Under the pieces are notes generated by a model. That model saw nothing but the letters and a program-made list of their open reading frames with translations. It ran no database searches and was not told the DNA's origin. Of a stretch of DNA of 64,000 bases, positions 1,940 to 62,197 are shown piece after piece. Position 1 is the stretch's first letter, and the number at the start of each line of letters is the position of its first letter. Made by a program: the position numbers and the translations under genes. The stretch comes from Camelus dromedarius (lineage: Eukaryota), in NCBI RefSeq assembly GCF_036321535.1, contig NC_087436.1, forward strand, positions 61,630,001 through 61,694,000, in the 5' to 3' direction.

Positions 1940-4900
1940 TCCTTAGGATGTCCAATACAGGCATAATCATATCATCTGAGAATGAGGAAATTTTACTTTG
2001 TTTCCAATCTGTATGGGCTTGGAACTTTTTTTTTTAATTTTTCTTATTCTTCTGGGGAAATTTTACATTTATAAATTCAATTTTTATAATACATATAGAG
2101 CCATATATTGTATATAGACCTATTTAATACATGTAAATTGAGCTTTGAAAATTTTTGTCTTTAGAAGGATTTGTCCATTTTATTTAAATTGTCAGATCTA
2201 TTGAAATATAGTTGTTTATAATATCCTCTTTTTTTTTTTTTCAGTGTTTGTATCTGCAGTGATGTCTCTTCTTTCATTCTGGATAGTGATAACTTTTCTT
2301 TTTTTCTTGACCTGACCTTGATCTGAGATAAATGGTTATGCATTGTTTTTTCCAATTTTAAAGAACCATTGTTTGACTTTATTTTCTCTATTGCTTGTCT
2401 ATTTTTTGTTTTTTTGTTTCATTAGTTTCCACTTTAATCTTCCTTGTATTTTTCCATCTGCTTACTGTAGGCTTAATTTTCTTCACTAGTTTCTTAAAGT
2501 TGAAAATGAGATTTTTAATTTGAGAACTTTCCTCCTTTTTAGTGTTGGTGCTAAGTACTATGATTTTCCTCTAAGCAATGCTTTAGCCACATCTCCAAAT
2601 TTTTATACATTTTGTTTAACTTCCCTTCAGTTAAAAAAATTTCTATTTTCTTCTGTGATTTTTTCTTTTACTTATAAATTATTTATTTGTTTATTTCTCA
2701 TTTTCAAATATTTGAAGATTTTCCAGATACCCTTTTTTGTTGTTGATGATGATTATTTAATTCTGTTATAGTTAGAAAACAAAACTTTGCATGATTTTGT
2801 CATGGGAGAATAGGTTCTTGCCTTGCACAGGAAAGAATTCAAGAGCTAGAAATAGTAAAGTGAAAGCAAGTTTATTTAGAAAGATACACACTTCACAGAG
2901 AGTGGGGTCTATCTCACTCAGGTGGAAAAATGGCTCAGGAGATACACACTCCATAAGGCAGAATGTGGGCAATCTCAGAAGGATGCGAGGGAGAGAGACT
3001 GTGAGTTGTGGGGGTATTTAGTTTAAAGTAAAACCAGATACTCACTCCATAGACAGAGTATGGGCCATCTCAGAAGGCGAGAGAGAGCGACCATGAGGTG
3101 CAGAGTTGTTAAATTTTATGGGCTCGGTAATTTTATATGCTAATGAGTAGAAGGATATTCGAACTACTTTGGGGAAAGGGTGAGAATTTCCAGGAAATGC
3201 ACCCCCTACCTGCTTTTTGACCTTTTATGGTCAGCCTAGGAGCTGTCATGGCACCTGTGGGTATGCCTGACGCTCAAGGCCTACTGGAAGTCGAATCTTC
3301 TGCCGTCTTGATTCTAACCAGTTTTTCCTGTCCTCAATTACTGTGTCATTCCTTCAATCATTGTGCCCTGCCCCCTTTCCTCCCACTTCAATTTCATCTC
3401 TTCTAAATTTATAGATACTTTTTAATTGGAAGTAGGTTATCAGTCTTGGGGAGTATTTTATATACACTTAAAAAAATCAAATCATAGTCAACTCTTTTGG
3501 TGTGGAACGTTCTACAAATGCTAACTATGTCAAATTCCTTGATGCTGTTATTAAAATCTTCCTGTGTTCTTACTAGGTTTTTTTTTTTTTTTTTTTTTTG
3601 TAGGGGGGTTACTTGTTTTACTGATTGCAAAGAGAGGGATACTGAAGTTCTTAGGTCTAAGTATGTATTTGTTTAATTTTCTTCAACTTCCAGCAGTATT
3701 TGTTTTATGAATTTTGATATTCCAATACTAGATACATAGACACTTAGGATTGTTATGATTTCTTAATGAACTGTACCTTTTTTTCCTATAGAATGTATAT
3801 TTTTATCCCTAGTAATATTCTTTGTTCTGAAATCTACTTTGTCTGGTATTAATATAGCTACTCTAGCTTTCTGTTGATTAGTATTTGCATGGTTTTTATA
3901 TATACATATTTTTAAATCTTTTTACATTTAACCAATTTGAGTCTCTATAGTCATTGTAGCTTTCTTGTGTAGTATAGAGTTGGGTCATGCTTTTTATTTA
4001 CGCTGATACTCCCTTCTCTTTTACTTTGTGTAGTTAGATCATTTCAATTTAATACAGTTTTGTGTAAATCCACAATCTTGATATTTGTTTTCTAGTTTTC
4101 CACCTTCTGTTTGTTCTCTTTTTTCTTGTTTCCTGTCTTGTTTCAAGTTAATTGAATATTTATTATGGTTCTATTTTATCTCTACTGTTGGCTTATTTGA
4201 CATATATGTATATATGTTTAATAGTTTCTCTCAGGTTTGCAATATATCTTTAACTTATCATAGTTTATATTCAAATGATACCAAACTAGTTCATATATAC
4301 TGTAAGAACCTCCCAATTACTCCCTCTTGGCTTTTGTGATAATGTTGTCATATGCTTTACTTCTACCCATGTTATAATATTGACTACATAATTTTTGCTA
4401 CATATCATCAATTATTATCATAAAAGATTAAAAATTGAGGAAAAATGGCTTCAGTATTTACTCATGTAGTTAGCATTTCTGGCGCTCATCATTTCTTTTT
4501 GTAGCTCCAAATTTATCTCTGGTATCATTTTTGTTTTACTTAAAGGACTTTTTTTAATATTTCTTTTAGTGCAATTCTGCTAATGATAAATTTTGCCAGC
4601 TCATTTTTTGTGTATGTAAAAATTATTATTTTGCCTTTATCTTTAAAACATATTTTCTTTGGGCATGAAATTATCAGATAGCTTTTCTCCTTTTAGTAGT
4701 TTATAGATGTAAATTAATTTTCTTGTGGCTTACCTAAACTCTGACAAGAAGGTAACTATCATTCTTAGCTTTTAAAAAAATATAATTCATTTTTCCTCCC
4801 TTGCAACCCCTTTCAAGGTTTTTGCTGTGTCACTGATGTTTAGTGATTTCATTATGATGTTCCTCTGCATTTCTTAGGGTTTTTGAGCATCTTCAATCTG

Positions 4901-6051: not shown

Positions 6052-7630
6052 TGTGTTCTGGTTACTACTTCTGAGTAAAAATTACCCCTAAGTATGGCAG
6101 TTTTTTTTTTTTTTAACATTTTTTATTGATTTATAATCATTTTACAATGTTGTGTTAAATTCCAGTGTTCAGCACAATTTTTCAGTTATTCATGGACATA
6201 TACACACTCATTGTCACATTTTTTTCTCTGTGAGTTATCATAACATTTTGTGTATATTTCCCTGTGCTATACAGTGTAGTCTATTCTACAGTTTTGAAAT
6301 CCCAGTCTATCCCTTCCCACCCTCCACCCCCCTGGTAACCACAAGTCTGTATTCTCTGTCTGTGAGTCTATTTCTGTCCTTTATTTACGCTTTGTTTTTG
6401 TTTGTTTGTTTGTTTTTGTTTTTGTTTTTTAGATTCCACATATGAGCGATCTCATATGGTATTTTTCTTTCTCTTTCTGGCTTACTTCACTTAGAATGAC
6501 ATTCTCCAGGAGCATCCATGTTGCTGCAAATGGCATTATGTTGTCTGTTTTTATGGCTGAGTAGTACTCCATTGTATAAATATACCACATCTTCTTTATC
6601 CAGTCACCTGTTGATGGACATTTAGGCTGTTTCCATGTTTTGGCTATTGTAAATAGTGCTGCTATGAACATTGGGGTGCAGGTGTCATCCTGAAGTAGAT
6701 TTCCTTCTGGATACAAGCCCAGGAGTGGGATTCCTGGGTCATATGGTAAGTCTATTCCTAGTCTTTTGAGGAATCTCCACACTGTTTTCCATAGTGGCTG
6801 CACCAAACTGCCTTCCCACGAGCAGTGTAGGAGGGTTCCCCTTTCTCCACAGCCTCTCCAGCATTTGTCATTTGTGGATTTTTGAATGACGGCCATTCTG
6901 ACTGGTGTGAGGTGATATCTCATAGTAGTTTTGATTTGCATTTCTCATGTGCTTTTTGATCATTTGTATGTCTTCCTTGGAGAATTGCTTGTTTAGGTCT
7001 TCTGCCCATTTTTGGATTGGGTTGTTTATTTTTTTCTTATTGAGTCGTATGAGCTGCTTATATATTCTGGAGATCAAGCCTTTGTTGGTTTCACTTGCAA
7101 AAATTTTCTCCCATTCCGTAGGTTTTCTTCTTGTTTTATTTCTGGTTTCCTTTGCTGTGCAGAAGCTTGTAAGTTTCATTAGGCAGCTTTTTAAAATAGC
7201 CGTTTTACTTTTCGCAGTTTTCTGTGTCAGAAATTTGGGGATGTATGTCTGGAAAGCTCTGCTGAGGGACTCTTATATGGTTGCAGTTAGATGTGGAAGC
7301 TGAAATAGATGTAATCCCAATAAGGCTTATTTGATGTCCTGCAGTTGATTTGGTGGTCTGACTGTCCACTGGCCTCTCCAGCATAGTACTCTTGGCAAGT
7401 TAGTCTTCTTACATGGCATCTGGCTTCCCTCATAATGACTGCAAGGAAGACTGGGCATAAGCTTAATGGATTTTTATGATCTAGATTTGGAAGTTATATG
7501 GGGTCACTGGTTTTGTACCCTATTGTTGAAGGAGATACAAGCTGATCCAGGTTCTGGTGAGAAGACACTGCTCCCATCTGGCAGTGGGAATAATGTTAAA
7601 GAATTTGTGGTAATTTGTAAAACTGCCACA
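6052..7630 (-). mobile_element. MaLR/ERVL LTR (MLT1G/H or MER21-like), split by a young L1
   Basis: Starts tgtgttctggttact...aaattacccc, resumes after the L1 at 7182 (cagttttctgtgtcagaaatttggg) and ends aaagaatttgtgg...ctgccaca, the typical reverse-strand MLT1/MER21 layout. Confidence 0.7.
6101..7181 (-). mobile_element. Young lineage-specific LINE-1, 5'-truncated (ORF2 C-terminus, 3'UTR, poly-A)
   Basis: Poly-T at 6101-6114; ORF 6429-6941 gives the L1 ORF2 C-terminus ([17 protein letters not shown]...CWRGC...HC...[10 protein letters not shown]); TSD ggcag(c)ttttt at 6096 and 7182, followed by a TTTT/AA endonuclease site. Confidence 0.97.
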
Positions 7631-9349: not shown

Positions 9350-9538
9350 CTATGCGTAAAATAAACAAGGACCTACTGTATAGCACGGGGAACTATATTC
9401 AATTTCTTGTAATGAGCTATAATGAAAAAGAATCTGAAAATATATGTATATGTAGTTTGTATATGTGTAACTGAATTGCTTTGCTATACACCTTAAAGTA
9501 ATAATGTAAATAAACTATACTTTAATTTAAAAAAAAAG
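9350..9538 (+). mobile_element. LINE-1 3'UTR fragment, cetartiodactyl type
   Basis: aacaaggacctactgtatagcacggggaactatattcaat...tgtaaataaactatact followed by an A tail. Confidence 0.85.
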
Positions 9539-21486: not shown

Positions 21487-21872
21487 TATGTTAGTTTGCT
21501 GGGGCAGCCATAACAAAGTACCACAGACTGGGAGGCTTAAATAAAATGACTTATTTTCTCACAATTCTGGAGGCTAGATTTTGAGATCAAGGTGTCTGCA
21601 GAGTTGGTTTCTTCTGAGACCACTCTCCTTGGCTTGTGGATGGCCATCTTCTCCCTGTGTCTTCACATGGTCTTCTCTCTACATGTCTACGTCCAAATTT
21701 CCTCTTCTTATAAGGATACCAGTCATGTTTGATTAGGACTCACATCAATGACCTTGCTTTATCTTAATTACCTCTTTAAAGACCCTAGGTCCAAATACAG
21801 TCACATTCTGAGGTCCTAGAGGTTAGGACTTAAACATATAGATGTTAGGAGAGCATAATTCAGCTTATAACA
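21487..21872 (-). mobile_element. MLT1A/B MaLR solo LTR
   Basis: gccataacaaagtaccacagactggg...aattcagcttataaca; 5-bp TSD AAATG (21482-21486 and 21873-21877). Confidence 0.92.
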
Positions 21873-25910: not shown

Positions 25911-26304
25911 TTCCATGGGCTGAGTTGTATCCTTCCCAAATTTATATGTTGAAATTCTAACACTCCCACCCACCCCAATATCTTAGAATGTGACTCTATT
26001 TAAGGGTAGCATCTTTAAAGAGGTAAAATAAGGTCATTATGGTGGACCTTAATCCAGCATGACTGATGTCCTTATATGCGGAGGAAATTTGGACACAGAC
26101 GGGTGTAGAGGGAAGCCCGTGTGAAGATAAGGGAGAAACTGGCAATAAACTAGTCAAGGAGAATGGCCTTGGAAGAAACCAGTCCTGCCAACACCCTGAT
26201 CTTGGAAGCTGGCCTCCAGAATTATGAGAAAATAAGTTTCTATTTATTGTTTGAGCCACGCCGTCTGTGGTACTTTGTCATAACAGCCCAAGCAAACCAA
26301 TATA
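25911..26304 (+). mobile_element. MLT1B-type MaLR solo LTR
   Basis: agaatgtgact...gaagaaaccagtcctgccaacaccctgatc...tgtggtactttgtcataacagccc; TSD TCTCT/TCTCC. Confidence 0.9.
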
Positions 26305-35426: not shown

Positions 35427-35500
35427 TACACCAGAAACTAACACAATATTGTAAATCAACTATAATTCAATAAAAACAAAAACAAAAAATAACAAAAAAC
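35427..35500 (+). mobile_element. Very short L1 3' terminus with A-rich tail
   Basis: tacaccagaaactaacacaatattgtaaatcaactata + A tail; imperfect TSD aatacagaatcct / aatacaaaatctt. Confidence 0.8.
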
Positions 35501-35679: not shown

Positions 35680-38600
35680 TTAGAAATCCTGCTAAATACT
35701 TTACTACTTCTAATAATTTACTTCTAGATTTTATGTACTGTATATACATTTATATCTTCCTTCACATACTGAAAGTCATGGTTACACCTTTTCATTCTCT
35801 AGACATTTTATTTGTCTTTCTTTTTTCACTGTACTGGCTAATAGCTTTGGAGCACTGTTGAGTAGAATTTGTGGTGGTGAGTATCATTATCTCTTTTTCT
35901 TATTTTAAAAAGAATGTTTCTAGCATTTCACTATTAAATATGATGATGATTTACATTTTTAAGATTTCCAGTAGATACCTTTCCTCATATTCTTAGTTTT
36001 CAAATTGTTTGGTTTTACCACAAACAAGTATTGAGTTTTTATTGAAACATATTCCTACTGTTTAGTGAGATCCAAGTATAGTTTTTCTCCTTCAGCCTGG
36101 AAATTAGGTGAATTTTCTTTAATAGATTTAAAAAATATTAAAGTAACATTTCATTTCTGTATAAGACCGAGGTGGGCATGACATATAATTTTTTTAAAAG
36201 TTTGCTTAGTATGGTTTGTCATTGCTTTTTTTTTTTTTTTTTCAGGATTTTATGTCTGTTATCACCATGTGATTTTCCTTTCCTGTACTGTTTTTGTTGG
36301 TTTTGCTATAAATGCTATATCATTATTTTATAAATAAGTTGGTGTATATTTTCTCTCTTCCCATAATATAGAAGTATTTGTATTAGATAGAAGTAATCTT
36401 ACCTTCAAAGTATAAAACAGCCAGAGTCTAGTGGTATCCTGGTGTAAGATTGTAATTACAGTTCTTTTTTTTTTTTTTTAACATTTTTTATTGATTTATA
36501 ATCATTTTACAATGTTGTGTCAAATTCCATTGTAGAACACAATTTTTCAGTTATACATGACCATATATATATTCATTGTCACATTTTTTTCTCTGTGAGC
36601 TACCATAAGATCTTGTGTATATTTCCCTGTGCTATACAGTATAATCTTGTTTATCTATTCTACAATTTTGAAATCCCAGTCTATCTCTTCCCACCCCCTG
36701 CCCCCTTGGCAACCACAAGTTTGTATTCTATGTCTGTGAGTCTATTTTTGTTTTGTATTTATGCTTTGGTTTTTTGGTTGTTGTTTTTTTGGGTTTTTTT
36801 TTTTGTTTGTTTTGTTTTTTTAGATTCCACATATGAGCAATCTCATATGGTATTTTTCTCTCTCTTTCTGGCTTACTTCACTTAGAATGACATTCTCCAG
36901 GAGCATCCATGTTGCTGCAAATGGCGTTATGTTGTCGGTTTTTATGGCTGAGTAGTATTCCATTGTATAAATATACCACCTCTTCTTTACCCAGTCATCT
37001 GTTGATGGACATTTAGGCTGTCTCCGTATCTTGGCTATTGTAAATAGTGCTGCTATGAACATTGGGTTGCAGGTGTCATTCTGAAGTAGGGTTCCTTCTG
37101 GATATATGCCCAGAAGTGGGATTCCTTGGTCATATGGTAAGTCTATTCCTAGTCTTTTGAGGAATCTCCATAGTGTTTTCCACAGTGGGTGCACCAAACT
37201 GCATTCCCACCATCAGTGTAGGAGGGTTCCATTTTCTCCACAGCCTCTCCAGCATTTGTCATTTGTGGATTTTTGAATGATGGCCGTTCTGACTGGTGTG
37301 AGGTGATACCTCATTGTAGTTTTGATTTGCATTTCTCTGATAATTAGTGATATTGAACATTTTTTCATGTGTCTATTGATCATTTGTATGTCTTCCTTGG
37401 AGAATTGCTTGTTTTGGTTTTTTACCCATTTTTGGATTGGGTTGTTTATTTTTTTCTTATTGAGCCGTATGAGCTGCTTATATATTCTGGAGATCAAGCC
37501 TTTGTCGGTTTCATCTGCAAAAATTTTTTCCCATTCTGTAGGTTGTCTTTTTGTTTTACTTATGGTTTCCTTTGTTGTGCAGAAGTGTGTACGTTTCATT
37601 GGGTCCCGTTTGTTTATTCTTTCTTTTATTTCTTCTAGGAGAAAATTTTTGAGATGTATGTCAGATAATGTTTTGCCTATATTTTCCTCTAGGAGGTTTA
37701 TTGTATCTTGTCTTATGTTTAAGTCTTTGATCCATTTTGAGTTGATTTTTGTATATGGTGTAAGGGAGTGTTCTAGCTTCATTGCTTTACATGCTGCTGT
37801 CCAGTTTTCCCAACACCTTTTGCTGAAGAGACTGTCTTTATTCCAATGTATATTCTTGCCTCCTTTGTCAAAGATAAGTTGACCAAAAGTTTGTGGGTTC
37901 ATTTCTGGGCTCTCTATTCTGTTCCATTGGTCTATATGTCTGTTTTTGTACCAATACCATGCTGTCTTGATTACTGCAGCTCTGTAGTATTGCCTGAAGT
38001 CTGGGAGGTTATTCCTCCAGCCTCTTTCTTTCTCTTCAGTAATGCTTTGGCAATTCTAGGTCTTTGATGGTTCCATACAAATTTTATTATGATTTGTTCT
38101 AGTTCTGTGAAATATGTCCTGGGTAATTGAATAGGGATTGCATTAAGTCTGTAGATTGCCTTGGGCAGTGTGACCATTTTGACAATATTGATTCTTCCAA
38201 TCCAAGAGCATTGGATATCTTTCCATTTTTAAAGTCTTCTTTAATTTCCTTCATCATTGGTTTATAGTTTTCTGTGTATAATTCTTTCACCTCCTTGGTT
38301 AGATTTATTCCTAAGTATTTTATATAATTACAATTCAATTTCTTTAATCATGATGCCTTAAGTCAATTGTTCCAAGCTGTACTAGGCTACCAGGACATTT
38401 GAAGGTAGTAGTATTTTGGCAATTGTGCAATATAGGACTACATAGACATTCTATTTTAAAATCTTTACTGTGGCTGTAGTCATTGACTCTTGTTTATGTG
38501 TGCTTTCTGTCCTTTTACTTAATCAGTGTCACTAGAAGTTTGCTTATTATTCATTTCAAAGAATCAATTTGTAGTTATTTTATCTTACCTGTACTATGTT

Positions 38601-39780: not shown

Positions 39781-40160
39781 TAATTTCTGATTCATAGACT
39801 GTATTAAATCTTTTTTTATCTGATACTTCGCTAAGCATTATGGATATGAGATTAAAAAGATGGGATCCATGCCATCAAGAAGTTTTACATTTGACTGAAA
39901 ACAGTGTGATAGAATCTTCATTAAAGAACTTCACTAAGAATGATGTGAGCACAGAGGATAATGTAACTAATTTACTAGGATTACATATTACATTTGATTA
40001 TTGTTGTTTTTACAAATAATGGTTTTAGATTTATTTATATTTTTATGGATATATTTTTACTCACAATTCCTTCTTATATATAAATTTTTTCCATGTGGTT
40101 AATTATATTGTAAATAGATAGTTTTATTCCCCCCTTTCTGTATGTTTTTTATTTTGTTTC

Positions 40161-40396
40161 TTTTTATTTATTTAACTATAGTTGATTTACAGTATTGTAT
40201 TAGTTTCATGTGTGCAGCTTCAGATTCTTTTCCATTATAGGTTATTATAAGATATTAAATGCAGTTCTATGTGCTATACAGTAAATCCTTGTTGTTTATC
40301 TATTTTATGTATAATGGTGTATATCTATTAATCCCATACTCCTAATTTATCCCTCCCCCTCCCCTTTCCCTTTGGTAACCATAAATTTGTTTTCCT
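40161..40396 (-). mobile_element. LINE-1 3'UTR fragment, cetartiodactyl type
   Basis: tatagttgatttacagtattgt...gtgctatacagtaaatccttgttgtttatc...ccctttggtaaccataaatttgttttc. Confidence 0.88.
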
Positions 40397-43221: not shown

Positions 43222-43792
43222 TGTTACAGAGAAGAAGGGTGGAGAAGTTACCTCGGTTCTTAGTTACTTGAAAAAAATGAACTTTTAATGAGAGACAGAA
43301 AGCGTGATATAAACAGAAGATTTTATTAGCGAAGTAAAAAGGTAATAAAATATAGTACACATCCGAGAACTGGGAGCGGGCCGATCCAAGAGAGGAAAAA
43401 TGGTACTGCTCCTTTGTTTTTCTGTGTCTTACATCCTGGCTTAGGGGATGTTTTTCGTGGTTGATTAATTCACGGCTCACTTTCCTTGTTCTCAGGCACG
43501 CCCATCCCTTTTGTGCGTGTTCTTACCCATGATGCACACAGAGAAACCTGCAGGAGGGGCTCAAACTGCAGTGTTAATTACATTATAATGAGCACTGGGT
43601 CAAGTTAAGCTGAGTCCTTCTGTCTATTGTGCAGCCACAGCGTTCAATCCTAGTCGACTTCTTCACTGGCCCTCATTTATAGAAAGTAAAAAATGTTGGA
43701 GCCCCTTATCCTGAGTGCAGGCATATTCTGGGTTGCTCCTTCCCCCTCCCTTTCCCCCTGCTCGGTGCTCAGTTCTATCTAAATGTCTAACA
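43222..43792 (-). mobile_element. Young solo LTR, ERV1 class (571 bp)
   Basis: TGTTA...TAACA inverted ends; perfect 4-bp TSD TCTC; minus-strand AATAAA near 43322-43327; about 13 CpGs retained. Confidence 0.92.
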
Positions 43793-43912
43793 TCTCTGTG
43801 CTGCATCTTTATTTGATGGAAACTTTTTTTTTTTTTTTGCTTTCATGAAGTTGCCACTTTTAATATGATTATGTACCATTAAATAGCTTACAGTTTTCAG
43901 GTTTCCAGAAAT

Positions 43913-44061
43913 TTTTTTTTTGAGTAAAGGTAGATTTATTCAGAGAGATACATTGAAAGGCAAGAGAAAGGCCACAAGATATGTGGGTTGGGTGCTTAGA
44001 TTAAAAGTAGGTACATGCTCCATAGACAGAGTGCGGGCTGTCTCCAACAGAGAGAGAGAGG
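43913..44061 (-). mobile_element. Polyadenylated retrocopy of an ERV1 LTR R region (L1-mobilised)
   Basis: Poly-T 43912-43921; AATAAA (minus) at 43935-43940; TSD tccagaaat at 43904-43912 and 44062-44070; body similar to LTR 2798-3390. Confidence 0.82.
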
Positions 44062-44772
44062 TCCAGAAATCTTGATATGAATTTGATTTTTGCACAAAAA
44101 TTTAGTAAAATGTAATTTTTTAAATCACGTATTAAAATAGCATAATTATAAACTACTGAAAATTTCCAGCATTGGTTAATAGACGTGAACTTAAAAGTAA
44201 GGCATTAGTCTAAGAATCATTACTTTCTAACCTCTAAAAAATAATCTATCATGAACAGCTTAAATACATATTTGACATAAGTTTCACATATATAAAATAG
44301 ATGGCTACATAAATACTATGTGTTTGCAAAGTCTTACTATTTTGTATTCTACATCAGGATAATAAAAAGAGCAATTTCAAGAGATTTACAAATTAAAATC
44401 AAAGTAATATTTTAAAAATTTGAAGGCATCTTTGCTTGATTTTCAGAGACATCATTGAGCTTCAAGTAATCCTATCAAATCTGATTAAAGTCTTAAGAGA
44501 TGTCATTTACTATTATAAGGATATAGTTTTTTATATTGTTACAAATCCTTTATGAAGTACTCTATAGTAGATGTTAACTAAATTAGAGATGAGTATTTTT
44601 ATGAATAATTATTTTCTAATTTAACCTGAATTTATTGTTATTTTTAAGGAAATTGCAAAATATATCTTATGTATTTTGGACAGTTTGATTTAGTTTAACA
44701 TTAAACTGAAATCAAACTTTAAATCTTGGGCCAAATGACAATCTTTTGCAAGTTATTAATTTTTTTTGTTGT

Positions 44773-62041: not shown

Positions 62042-62197
62042 GGGGAGGGTGTAGCTCAGTGGTAGAGTGCATGCCTAGCATGCACAAGGTCCTGGGTTTA
62101 ATTCCCAGTACCTTTGTTAAAAAAAAAATTGATAAATAAACCTAATTACTGCCCCCTCTTCAAAAAATTTAAAAAAAATAAGCAAAGTAACTTAAAA
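62042..62197 (+). mobile_element. tRNA-derived camelid SINE (Vic-1-like)
   Basis: ggggagggtgtagctcagtggtagag (A box)...ggtcctgggtttaattccc (B box), A tract, aataaacctaattac..cccc segment, second A tail; degenerate ~15-bp TSD preceded by TT/AAA. Confidence 0.92.

What the first reader, a model, noticed from the sequence alone, without database searches (positions are those of the whole stretch)
43904..44073. LTR R-region copy with poly-A tail and L1-type TSD: an ERV transcript retroposed by LINE-1, possibly an LTR-derived SINE-like family
Seen: a ~150-bp minus-strand insert ends 13 nt after AATAAA in a 10-nt A tail and is flanked by tccagaaat (9 bp exact; 12 bp tccagaaat[t/c]tt with one mismatch), with TCTT/GA at the junction. 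Its body aligns by eye to the solo LTR at 2798-3390: gtaaaggtagatttattcagagagatac vs gtgaaagcaagtttatttagaaagatac, and ctccatagacagagtgcgggctgtctc..gagagagag vs ctccatagacagagtatgggccatctc..gagagagag. The solo LTR continues past this point into U5 and has TG..CA ends with a 4-bp TSD; this copy has no U5, no TG..CA and a long TSD. Established: poly-A, variable long TSDs and a TTTT/AA-like site mark L1 target-primed reverse transcription, and HERV-W processed pseudogenes are a precedent. Inference: either a 5'-truncated processed ERV/LTR transcript or, because it starts shortly downstream of where the relative's TATA-like box lies, a complete short R-only transcript behaving like a SINE. One LTR family would then spread by two mechanisms.
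Basis: partly seen in the sequence, partly recalled or inferred. Interest (0 to 1): 0.75.

Follow-up and report, generated by a model that had tools for sequence, protein, structure and literature searches.

The report
Retroviral end-repeat fragment copied by LINE-1
A short piece of an old retroviral end-repeat was copied from its RNA and pasted into this mammal's genome by the LINE-1 machinery, as apparently happened at dozens of other sites, a route best known from one human retrovirus family; it looks like a dead retrocopy and not a self-spreading SINE.

Summary
A 140-nt minus-strand insert (43922-44061) ends 13 nt after AATAAA in a 10-nt A tail. It has a 9-bp exact TSD (11 of 12 extended) and a TCTT/GA nick site, and it is homologous to the solo LTR at 2798-3390. 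Contigs of three DNA runs of the same organism show a high-copy LTR family in two forms. One continues into U5 with no A tract (40, 36, 35 contigs). The other carries poly-A plus unrelated flanks at this site (29, 37, 45 of 1442, 1488, 1719 contigs laid). So L1 retroposition of this LTR's RNA probably recurred, in a small minority of copies. The 5' end maps 32 nt from the LTR's last TATA-like box (chance about 1-4%), which fits an RNA that began and ended inside one LTR. The 5' ends of other copies could not be read, and no empty site was seen. No Pol III promoter or small-RNA head was found, so SINE membership fails. Best reading: an R-only LTR retrocopy (0.5), against a 5'-truncated longer RNA (0.38). 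It is a variant of HERV-W-type processed pseudogenes in a probably MER41-like, camelid-like family (labels untested).

The parts
43904..43912 (+). TSD copy at the poly-A side (9 bp exact; to 43915 with one mismatch)
43912..43921 (-). poly-A tail, 10 nt (first base shared with the TSD)
   Evidence: LTR-form contigs continue into U5-like sequence here instead (table 7)
43922..44061 (-). insert body, 140 nt, corresponding to the putative R region of an ERV1-type LTR
   Evidence: summed contig depth over most of it is thousands of times that of the flank
43935..43940 (-). AATAAA polyadenylation signal, 13 nt before the tail
44049..44061 (-). 5' end of the insert: 13 pyrimidines (CT run); first base aligns to solo-LTR position 303 (window 3088)
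44062..44070 (+). TSD copy at the 5' side (to 44073 in the 12-bp reading)
44070..44075 (+). L1-endonuclease-like site TCTT/GA (two transitions from TTTT/AA); inferred nick between 44073 and 44074
   Evidence: TTTT/AA preference from PMC2912911
2798..3390 (-). related solo LTR, 593 nt, TG...CA, 4-bp TSD at 2794-2797 and 3391-3394; a diverged relative, not the source
3114..3120 (-). last TATA-like box of the solo LTR, starting 32 nt before the position that matches the insert's first base
2871..2876 (-). AATAAA of the solo LTR, followed by U5

Best explanation
An LTR of this ERV family (a solo LTR or a 5' LTR) started Pol II transcription about 30 nt after its TATA-like box and was cleaved and polyadenylated at its own AATAAA, which gave a capped RNA of about 140 nt holding only R. 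L1 ORF2p nicked the target at TCTT/GA, primed on the poly-A tail and reverse transcribed the RNA to its 5' end, leaving a 9-12 bp TSD. The copy lacks the U3 promoter and the U5 downstream element, so it is a dead retrocopy. L1 capture of RNAs ending at this poly-A site happened at dozens of loci or more. Shown: anatomy, homology, two forms of the family, position of the 5' end relative to a TATA-like box. Inferred: L1 as the agent (about 0.93), recurrence at dozens of loci (about 0.85), the start site, and the R-only source.
For: TSD, tail and nick site; chance of such a TSD is 0.13%. Loose ends at 43912 are poly-T with long, unlike flanks in 29, 37 and 45 contigs (median loose length 255, agreement about 0.5), while 40, 36, 35 and 20 contigs continue into U5-like sequence that shares 19 nt with window 2828-2846. 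X10 record 9 aligns 94 nt through the T run with 11 differences and has 2821 further letters that do not fit this locus. The insert's first 80 nt fit the LTR's first unit best (60 of 80 identities, against 48 and 41 for units 2 and 3), starting at LTR position 303, 32 nt from the last TATA-like box; 17 of 442-538 positions (3-4%) lie this far from any of 4 TATA-like boxes, 1% for the last alone. Precedents: RNAs that start and end in one solo LTR were 29 of 194 solo-LTR reads for HERV-K (PMC13238051); short RNAs polyadenylated at the 5' LTR arise when splice-donor protection is missing (PMC3694450). The window's solo LTR has no GT[AG]AG motif until 411 nt after its AATAAA.
Against: The start site is inferred from a motif in a 74%-identical relative, not measured. 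The family varies in tandem-unit content (joints skipping 48-75 nt), so the register could be an inner unit in the true source. No extra 5' G is present, and the TSD end shares a weak TGG(A/T)C likeness with the LTR just upstream, as truncated copies can. Most relatives stop aligning at 44044-44047, and only about 8-9 single-copy equivalents per run reach 44060-44061, so a shared 5' end is not shown. One other tailed piece (X1 record 1, X12 record 18) stops aligning at 44015 with 62-122 letters that do not fit. In the HERV-K data, solo LTRs more often ended upstream transcripts (100 of 194 reads). I saw only counts and 30-letter summaries of the poly-T contigs, not their sequences or TSDs. No empty site was seen.
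Confidence: 0.5

Rival explanations
1. A 5'-truncated L1 retrocopy of a longer RNA that ended at this LTR's poly-A site: a proviral RNA (HERV-W-type processed pseudogene), a host or read-through transcript, or an orphan L1 3' transduction. The cut near the predicted start is a coincidence, perhaps helped by the CT run or by microhomology.
For: All 3' features and the other poly-A loci fit equally well. HERV-W gives the precedent (PMC5016936). Solo LTRs end upstream transcripts more often than they make self-contained ones (100 against 29 of 194 reads). No extra G and a weak microhomology at the 5' junction. One other tailed piece leaves the alignment at 44015.
Against: The 5' end falls within 1-2 nt of a TATA-predicted start, a 1-4% coincidence on a uniform model. 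The first 80 nt match the LTR's first unit and not inner units.
Confidence: 0.38
2. A true LTR-derived SINE: R-only copies, or a few master loci, are themselves transcribed and give rise to further copies, forming a lineage with its own diagnostic changes.
For: Short length, tail, TSD and recurrence at other loci. About 8-9 single-copy equivalents reach the same 5' boundary in each DNA run, and X10 record 15 stops at 44061.
Against: No A box, only a one-mismatch B-box-like string, and an internal T4. No Rfam match at the insert. No stable fold (z = 0.17). At six positions 94-99% of laid depth in X1 differs from this copy, so no large subfamily shares its letters. Partly fitting contigs number at most 425-503 per run, while summed depth at the AATAAA end is 6,100-9,800 times single-copy.
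Confidence: 0.07
3. Not an L1 product: a decayed or deleted solo LTR, or a DNA-level insertion, beside a chance A run and a chance direct repeat.
For: The region is AT-rich, with another T16 run at 43824-43839. The 9-mer occurs 5 times in the window against 1.65 expected. No empty site was seen.
Against: The TSD sits exactly at both edges of the high-depth repeat, with chance 0.13%. The tail follows AATAAA by 13 nt where the LTR form has U5, and the same junction recurs in 29-45 other contigs.
Confidence: 0.05

Closest known systems
HERV-W processed pseudogenes (PMC5016936, PMC5537654; passages read)
   Same: ERV RNA ending at the R/U5 border, poly-A tail, TT/AAAA-type site, 5-15 bp TSD, alongside ordinary proviruses and solo LTRs of the same family.
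   Different: HERV-W copies are collinear with proviral mRNA (R-U5 ... U3-R) and make up 135 of 213 elements. This copy holds only an R-sized piece, the poly-A form is a small minority, and the family is non-primate. PMC5537654 calls HERV-W the sole HERV group mobilised by L1, and PMC6995185 found no such copies in New World monkeys.
MER41-like ERV1 LTRs of cetartiodactyls (MER41_Vpa, MER41_BT; bioRxiv 10.1101/2021.10.01.462810, passages)
   Same: About 600-nt LTR, 4-bp TSD and a GAS motif. The likeness of its AATAAA region and unit core to human MER41 is recalled from memory.
   Different: No Dfam or Repbase comparison was possible, so the family name is a lead. The passages read do not mention poly-A copies.
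Retro-DNAs and other L1 retrocopies of repeat-derived RNAs (PMC11195612, PMC11727581; passages)
   Same: Fragments of another transposon class copied by L1, with tail and long TSD, low in number, without their own promoter.
   Different: The source here is an LTR that supplies its own promoter and poly-A signal, so both ends could be fixed by the element itself.
SINEs (Pol III, small-RNA head; PMC7245038, passages) and SVA/SINE-R (recalled)
   Same: Short, non-coding, poly-A, L1-type TSD. SVA also ends in an ERV LTR piece at its poly-A signal (recalled).
   Different: No small-RNA head or Pol III promoter, no composite structure, and no evidence that copies beget copies.

Membership tests
L1-made retrocopy (TPRT in trans) | poly-A tail downstream of a poly-A signal, not templated by the source | tested here: met
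   A10 13 nt after AATAAA; LTR-form contigs continue into U5 here
L1-made retrocopy (TPRT in trans) | TSD of about 5-20 bp at both junctions | tested here: met
   9 bp exact, 11 of 12 extended; chance 0.13%
L1-made retrocopy (TPRT in trans) | endonuclease site like TTTT/AA | tested here: met
   TCTT/GA, two transitions from consensus; it depends on the 12-bp reading. One-substitution TSD extensions are common (PMC2912911)
L1-made retrocopy (TPRT in trans) | empty orthologous site with one TSD copy | tested here: inconclusive
   5' junction present with 0 differences in 3 of 3 DNA runs; no empty-site joint among 15 of 28 joints shown; all named DNA holders were one organism
HERV-W-type ERV processed pseudogene | 3' end at the R/U5 border, U5 missing | tested here: met
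HERV-W-type ERV processed pseudogene | collinear with proviral mRNA (R-U5, internal sequence, U3-R) | tested here: not met
   the insert is 140 nt and aligns only to LTR positions 303-538; a truncated form is not excluded
SINE | head derived from tRNA, 7SL, 5S or snRNA | tested here: not met
   Rfam scan of the window: 1 hit, at 62045-62116, none at the insert
SINE | internal Pol III promoter (A and B boxes) | tested here: not met
   no A box and no exact B box on the sense strand; one B-box-like string with a mismatch; internal T4 (motifs recalled)
SINE | many copies sharing both ends | tested here: inconclusive
   3' end shared by 29-45 contigs per run; 5' ends not readable; about 8-9 single-copy equivalents reach 44060-44061
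SINE | copies give rise to copies (own lineage with diagnostic changes) | tested here: inconclusive
   no large group shares this copy's letters at six positions; sequences of other tailed copies were not available
MER41-like ERV1 LTR (parent family) | TG...CA ends and short TSD in the LTR form | tested here: met
   solo LTR 2798-3390, 4-bp TSD
MER41-like ERV1 LTR (parent family) | sequence match to the MER41_Vpa or a related library entry | not testable with these tools
   no Dfam or Repbase here; the name is recalled; the entry's existence is

The most novel reading that the evidence does not exclude
This LTR family repeatedly made short RNAs that start and end inside one LTR, and L1 pasted them as a discrete set of tens to hundreds of R-only copies sharing both ends. 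That would be a SINE-like by-product of an ERV outside primates, and a fossil record of the start and poly-A sites of an extinct retrovirus family. A self-propagating lineage within that set is the far end of this reading (about 0.07).
Probability: 0.35. Interest if true: 0.65.

Novelty: new variant of a known kind. Interest (0 to 1): 0.42.

Why it matters
Reviews describe L1 mobilisation of ERV RNA as peculiar to HERV-W and leave the reason open. A second family with recurrent poly-A copies, in another mammalian order, would give a comparison for what makes ERV RNA an L1 substrate. If the 5' ends cluster, the copies mark germline start and poly-A sites of an old LTR family and show a possible first step from LTR to SINE. 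Repeat annotation would file such copies as LTR fragments, which hides them. For this single locus no function is suggested: it is old, seemingly fixed, and no host gene was identified.

Tried and rejected
The whole genome is not held, so copies could not be collected. Pattern scans for other copies found none: metagenome contigs 0 and 0, prokaryote genomes 0, viral contigs 0. One viral hit, L001, matches only the 19-nt pattern and is treated as chance. Pfam on 49 selected ORFs (40 of the 49 exon-like candidates plus 9 long ORFs) gave 0 hits, even for the L1 ORF2 piece, so host-gene context is undetermined. The RNA fold is no better than shuffles. RNA run X16 holds family contigs and low depth on the left flank, but contigs cannot show starts, ends or transcription, so nothing is concluded from it; 43760-43864 was uncovered in all 4 runs, probably a filter. 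No second poly-A copy of this family is in the window: 5 AATAAA-plus-A-run matches, 1 of them this insert. My TSD search on two L1 fragments and the SINE as controls gave no convincing TSD. APOBEC editing as a cause of this copy's differences was considered and dropped: too few sites. Look-ups of earlier findings gave one unrelated note in 5 calls. Pavlicek 2002 (PMC155283) is not held, and the supplements of PMC8605555 were unavailable; its repeat libraries could already list this form.

Full report
Observation. On the minus strand it runs from 44061 to 43922 (140 nt), has AATAAA at 43940-43935, then 13 nt, then ten A. TCCAGAAAT flanks it at 43904-43912 and 44062-44070; the repeat extends to 12 bp with one mismatch, and that reading places a TCTT/GA nick at 44073/44074. 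Only 4 of 3000 random positions show a 9-bp exact repeat at this spacing with 6 nt of slack. The body is homologous to the solo LTR at 2798-3390: E=4.6e-6 by blastn, local score 67.5 against a shuffle maximum of 48.5 in 500. That LTR has TG...CA ends, a 4-bp TSD, three tandem units, one AATAAA and a U5 beyond it. It is only about 74% identical to the insert and is not its source.

Related sequence. No genome is held for this window, and four pattern scans of metagenome, prokaryote and viral collections found no copy (the single hit is chance). Of 24 public runs listed, 14 hold 0.89-0.92 of the words of 43300-44700, all labelled organism A. I laid 4 of the 24 (X1, X12, X10 and the RNA run X16) on 43760-44209 at 80% likeness. 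The insert is part of a high-copy family: 1442, 1488, 1719 and 441 contigs were laid. Summed depth at 43925-43954 is 6,100-9,800 times that of the single-copy right flank in the three DNA runs (the tool warns that this is no copy number, so I take it as a scale only).

Two forms at the 3' end. In 40, 36, 35 and 20 contigs the sequence leaves the alignment at 43920 and continues into a conserved stretch (agreement about 0.8) that shares 19 nt with the solo LTR's U5 at 2828-2846. So the LTR form has no A tract here. In 29, 37 and 45 contigs of the three DNA runs the alignment runs through the T tract to 43912 and continues into more T and then long, mutually unlike sequence (median loose length 255, agreement about 0.5). 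Among the 32 pieces shown (5189 more were not), 6 reach into the T tract with 7-14 differences and appear to be three other loci. One (X10 record 9) carries 2821 letters of unrelated flank. These are what other poly-A retrocopies would look like. Limits: 24 of 400 loose-end rows were shown, I saw no full sequences or TSDs of these contigs, and contigs with long tails may be missed. All partly fitting contigs together number 425, 437 and 503, which bounds the tailed form among what was laid. It is a small share of the family.

The 5' end. The insert's first 80 nt fit the first tandem unit of the solo LTR best (60 identities, against 48 and 41), starting at LTR position 303, 32 nt from the start of the last of four TATA-like matches. 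A start about 30 nt after TATA is established knowledge; R runs from the start site to the poly-A site, and gamma-type LTRs have two TATA-like boxes, of which the second agrees with experiment (PMC2664473). On a uniform model the coincidence is 1-4%. Against it: the start is unmeasured, the family varies in unit content (joints skipping 48-75 nt), there is no extra G, and a weak microhomology with upstream LTR sequence is possible. The contigs do not settle it. Most relatives leave the alignment at 44044-44047, where this copy differs from them. Their loose ends are of middle length (65-117) and low agreement. About 8-9 single-copy equivalents per run reach 44060-44061, if each stops there. 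One record stops at 44061, and one other tailed locus stops at 44015.

Age and state. A contig of 2.7-5.3 kb spans 44018-44209 with no differences in all three DNA runs, and no empty-site joint is among the 15 of 28 joints shown, so the insertion is probably fixed in organism A. At 7 listed positions most laid depth differs from this copy (70% at one, 94-99% at six, in X1). That suggests an old copy or a diverged source, and no large subfamily sharing its letters. The camelid label rests on an earlier unchecked note and on my recollection of the window's SINE and L1; I did not test it.

Mechanism. Most likely an LTR fired its promoter and used its own poly-A signal, and L1 copied the short RNA by target-primed reverse transcription. 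Precedents for the RNA: HERV-K solo LTRs give reads that start and end inside the LTR (29 of 194, PMC13238051), and retroviral 5' LTRs give short polyadenylated RNAs when splice-donor protection is lost (PMC3694450). Mammalian L1 copies any poly-A RNA, ERV RNA included (PMC7245038). The main rival, 5' truncation of a longer RNA ending at the same site, explains everything but the position of the 5' end, and solo LTRs end upstream transcripts more often (100 of 194). I put these at 0.5 and 0.38. A true SINE fails on head and promoter, and an R-only copy has lost U3 and so has no evident way to be transcribed again.

Comparison with what is known. It works like a HERV-W processed pseudogene: tail, TT/AAAA-type site, 5-15 bp TSD, U5 lost (PMC5016936). 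It lacks the collinear proviral body. PMC5537654 calls HERV-W the sole HERV group so mobilised, and PMC6995185 found none in New World monkeys. A genome-wide tail-plus-TSD screen, however, maps some human insertions to ERVs (PMC11727581), and retro-DNAs show that L1 copies other repeat RNAs (PMC11195612), so the process may be common and under-reported. Ten literature searches showed no description of R-only LTR retrocopies or of such a family in camelids. A camelid repeat survey has no occurrence of 'MER41' or 'solo' in its main text (PMC8605555). The library lacks most subscription papers, Dfam and Repbase, and that survey's supplements were unreadable, so absence from print is not established.

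What I read. Term-matched passages only for PMC13756887, PMC5016936, PMC8219666, bioRxiv 10.1101/2021.10.01.462810, PMC11195612, PMC7245038, PMC3747384, PMC11727581, PMC5537654, PMC3694450, PMC2664473, PMC13238051, PMC6995185 and PMC8605555; abstract and passages for PMC2912911; nothing of Pavlicek 2002. PMC13756887, PMC8219666 and PMC3747384 added nothing specific.

Verdict. A real L1-type retrocopy of an LTR's R region, probably one of dozens or more, a new variant of a known kind. Interest 0.42; 0.65 if the 5' ends prove to cluster at the start site.

Noticed in passing
window 6101-7300 and 36466-38055 (minus): Two L1 3' fragments with poly-A ends, 91-93% identical over their long shared blocks; ORF2 C-terminal frames are visible.
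   Followed up: partly
window 62045-62116 (+): tRNA-like head (Rfam RF00005, 48.7 bits) followed by A-rich sequence: a tRNA-derived SINE, resembling the camelid vic-1 type from memory.
   Followed up: partly
window 3188-3196: The solo LTR carries one GAS (STAT1-type) motif in U3, as reported for bovine MER41 elements.
   Followed up: partly
window 43940-44026 (joints): Many family members lack 48-75 nt relative to this copy, or carry other letters there: the R region varies in tandem-unit content between subfamilies.
   Followed up: no
window 44049-44061 (minus): The insert starts with 13 pyrimidines, like a TCT-initiator or 5'TOP start (motif recalled). TOP mRNAs are frequent retrocopy sources (recalled), but any CT run fits the motif.
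   Followed up: no
window 21487-21812 and 25982-26304: Two copies of an older repeat in opposite orientation, 74-80% complementary in four blocks, about 4.2-4.7 kb apart; not identified.
   Followed up: no
window 9361-9438, 35428-35496, 40145-40324: Short related pieces that look like older L1 3' ends.
   Followed up: no
window 44084-44122 (approximate): A second single-copy contig matches about 39 nt of the right flank in all three DNA runs (depth step); unexplained.
   Followed up: no
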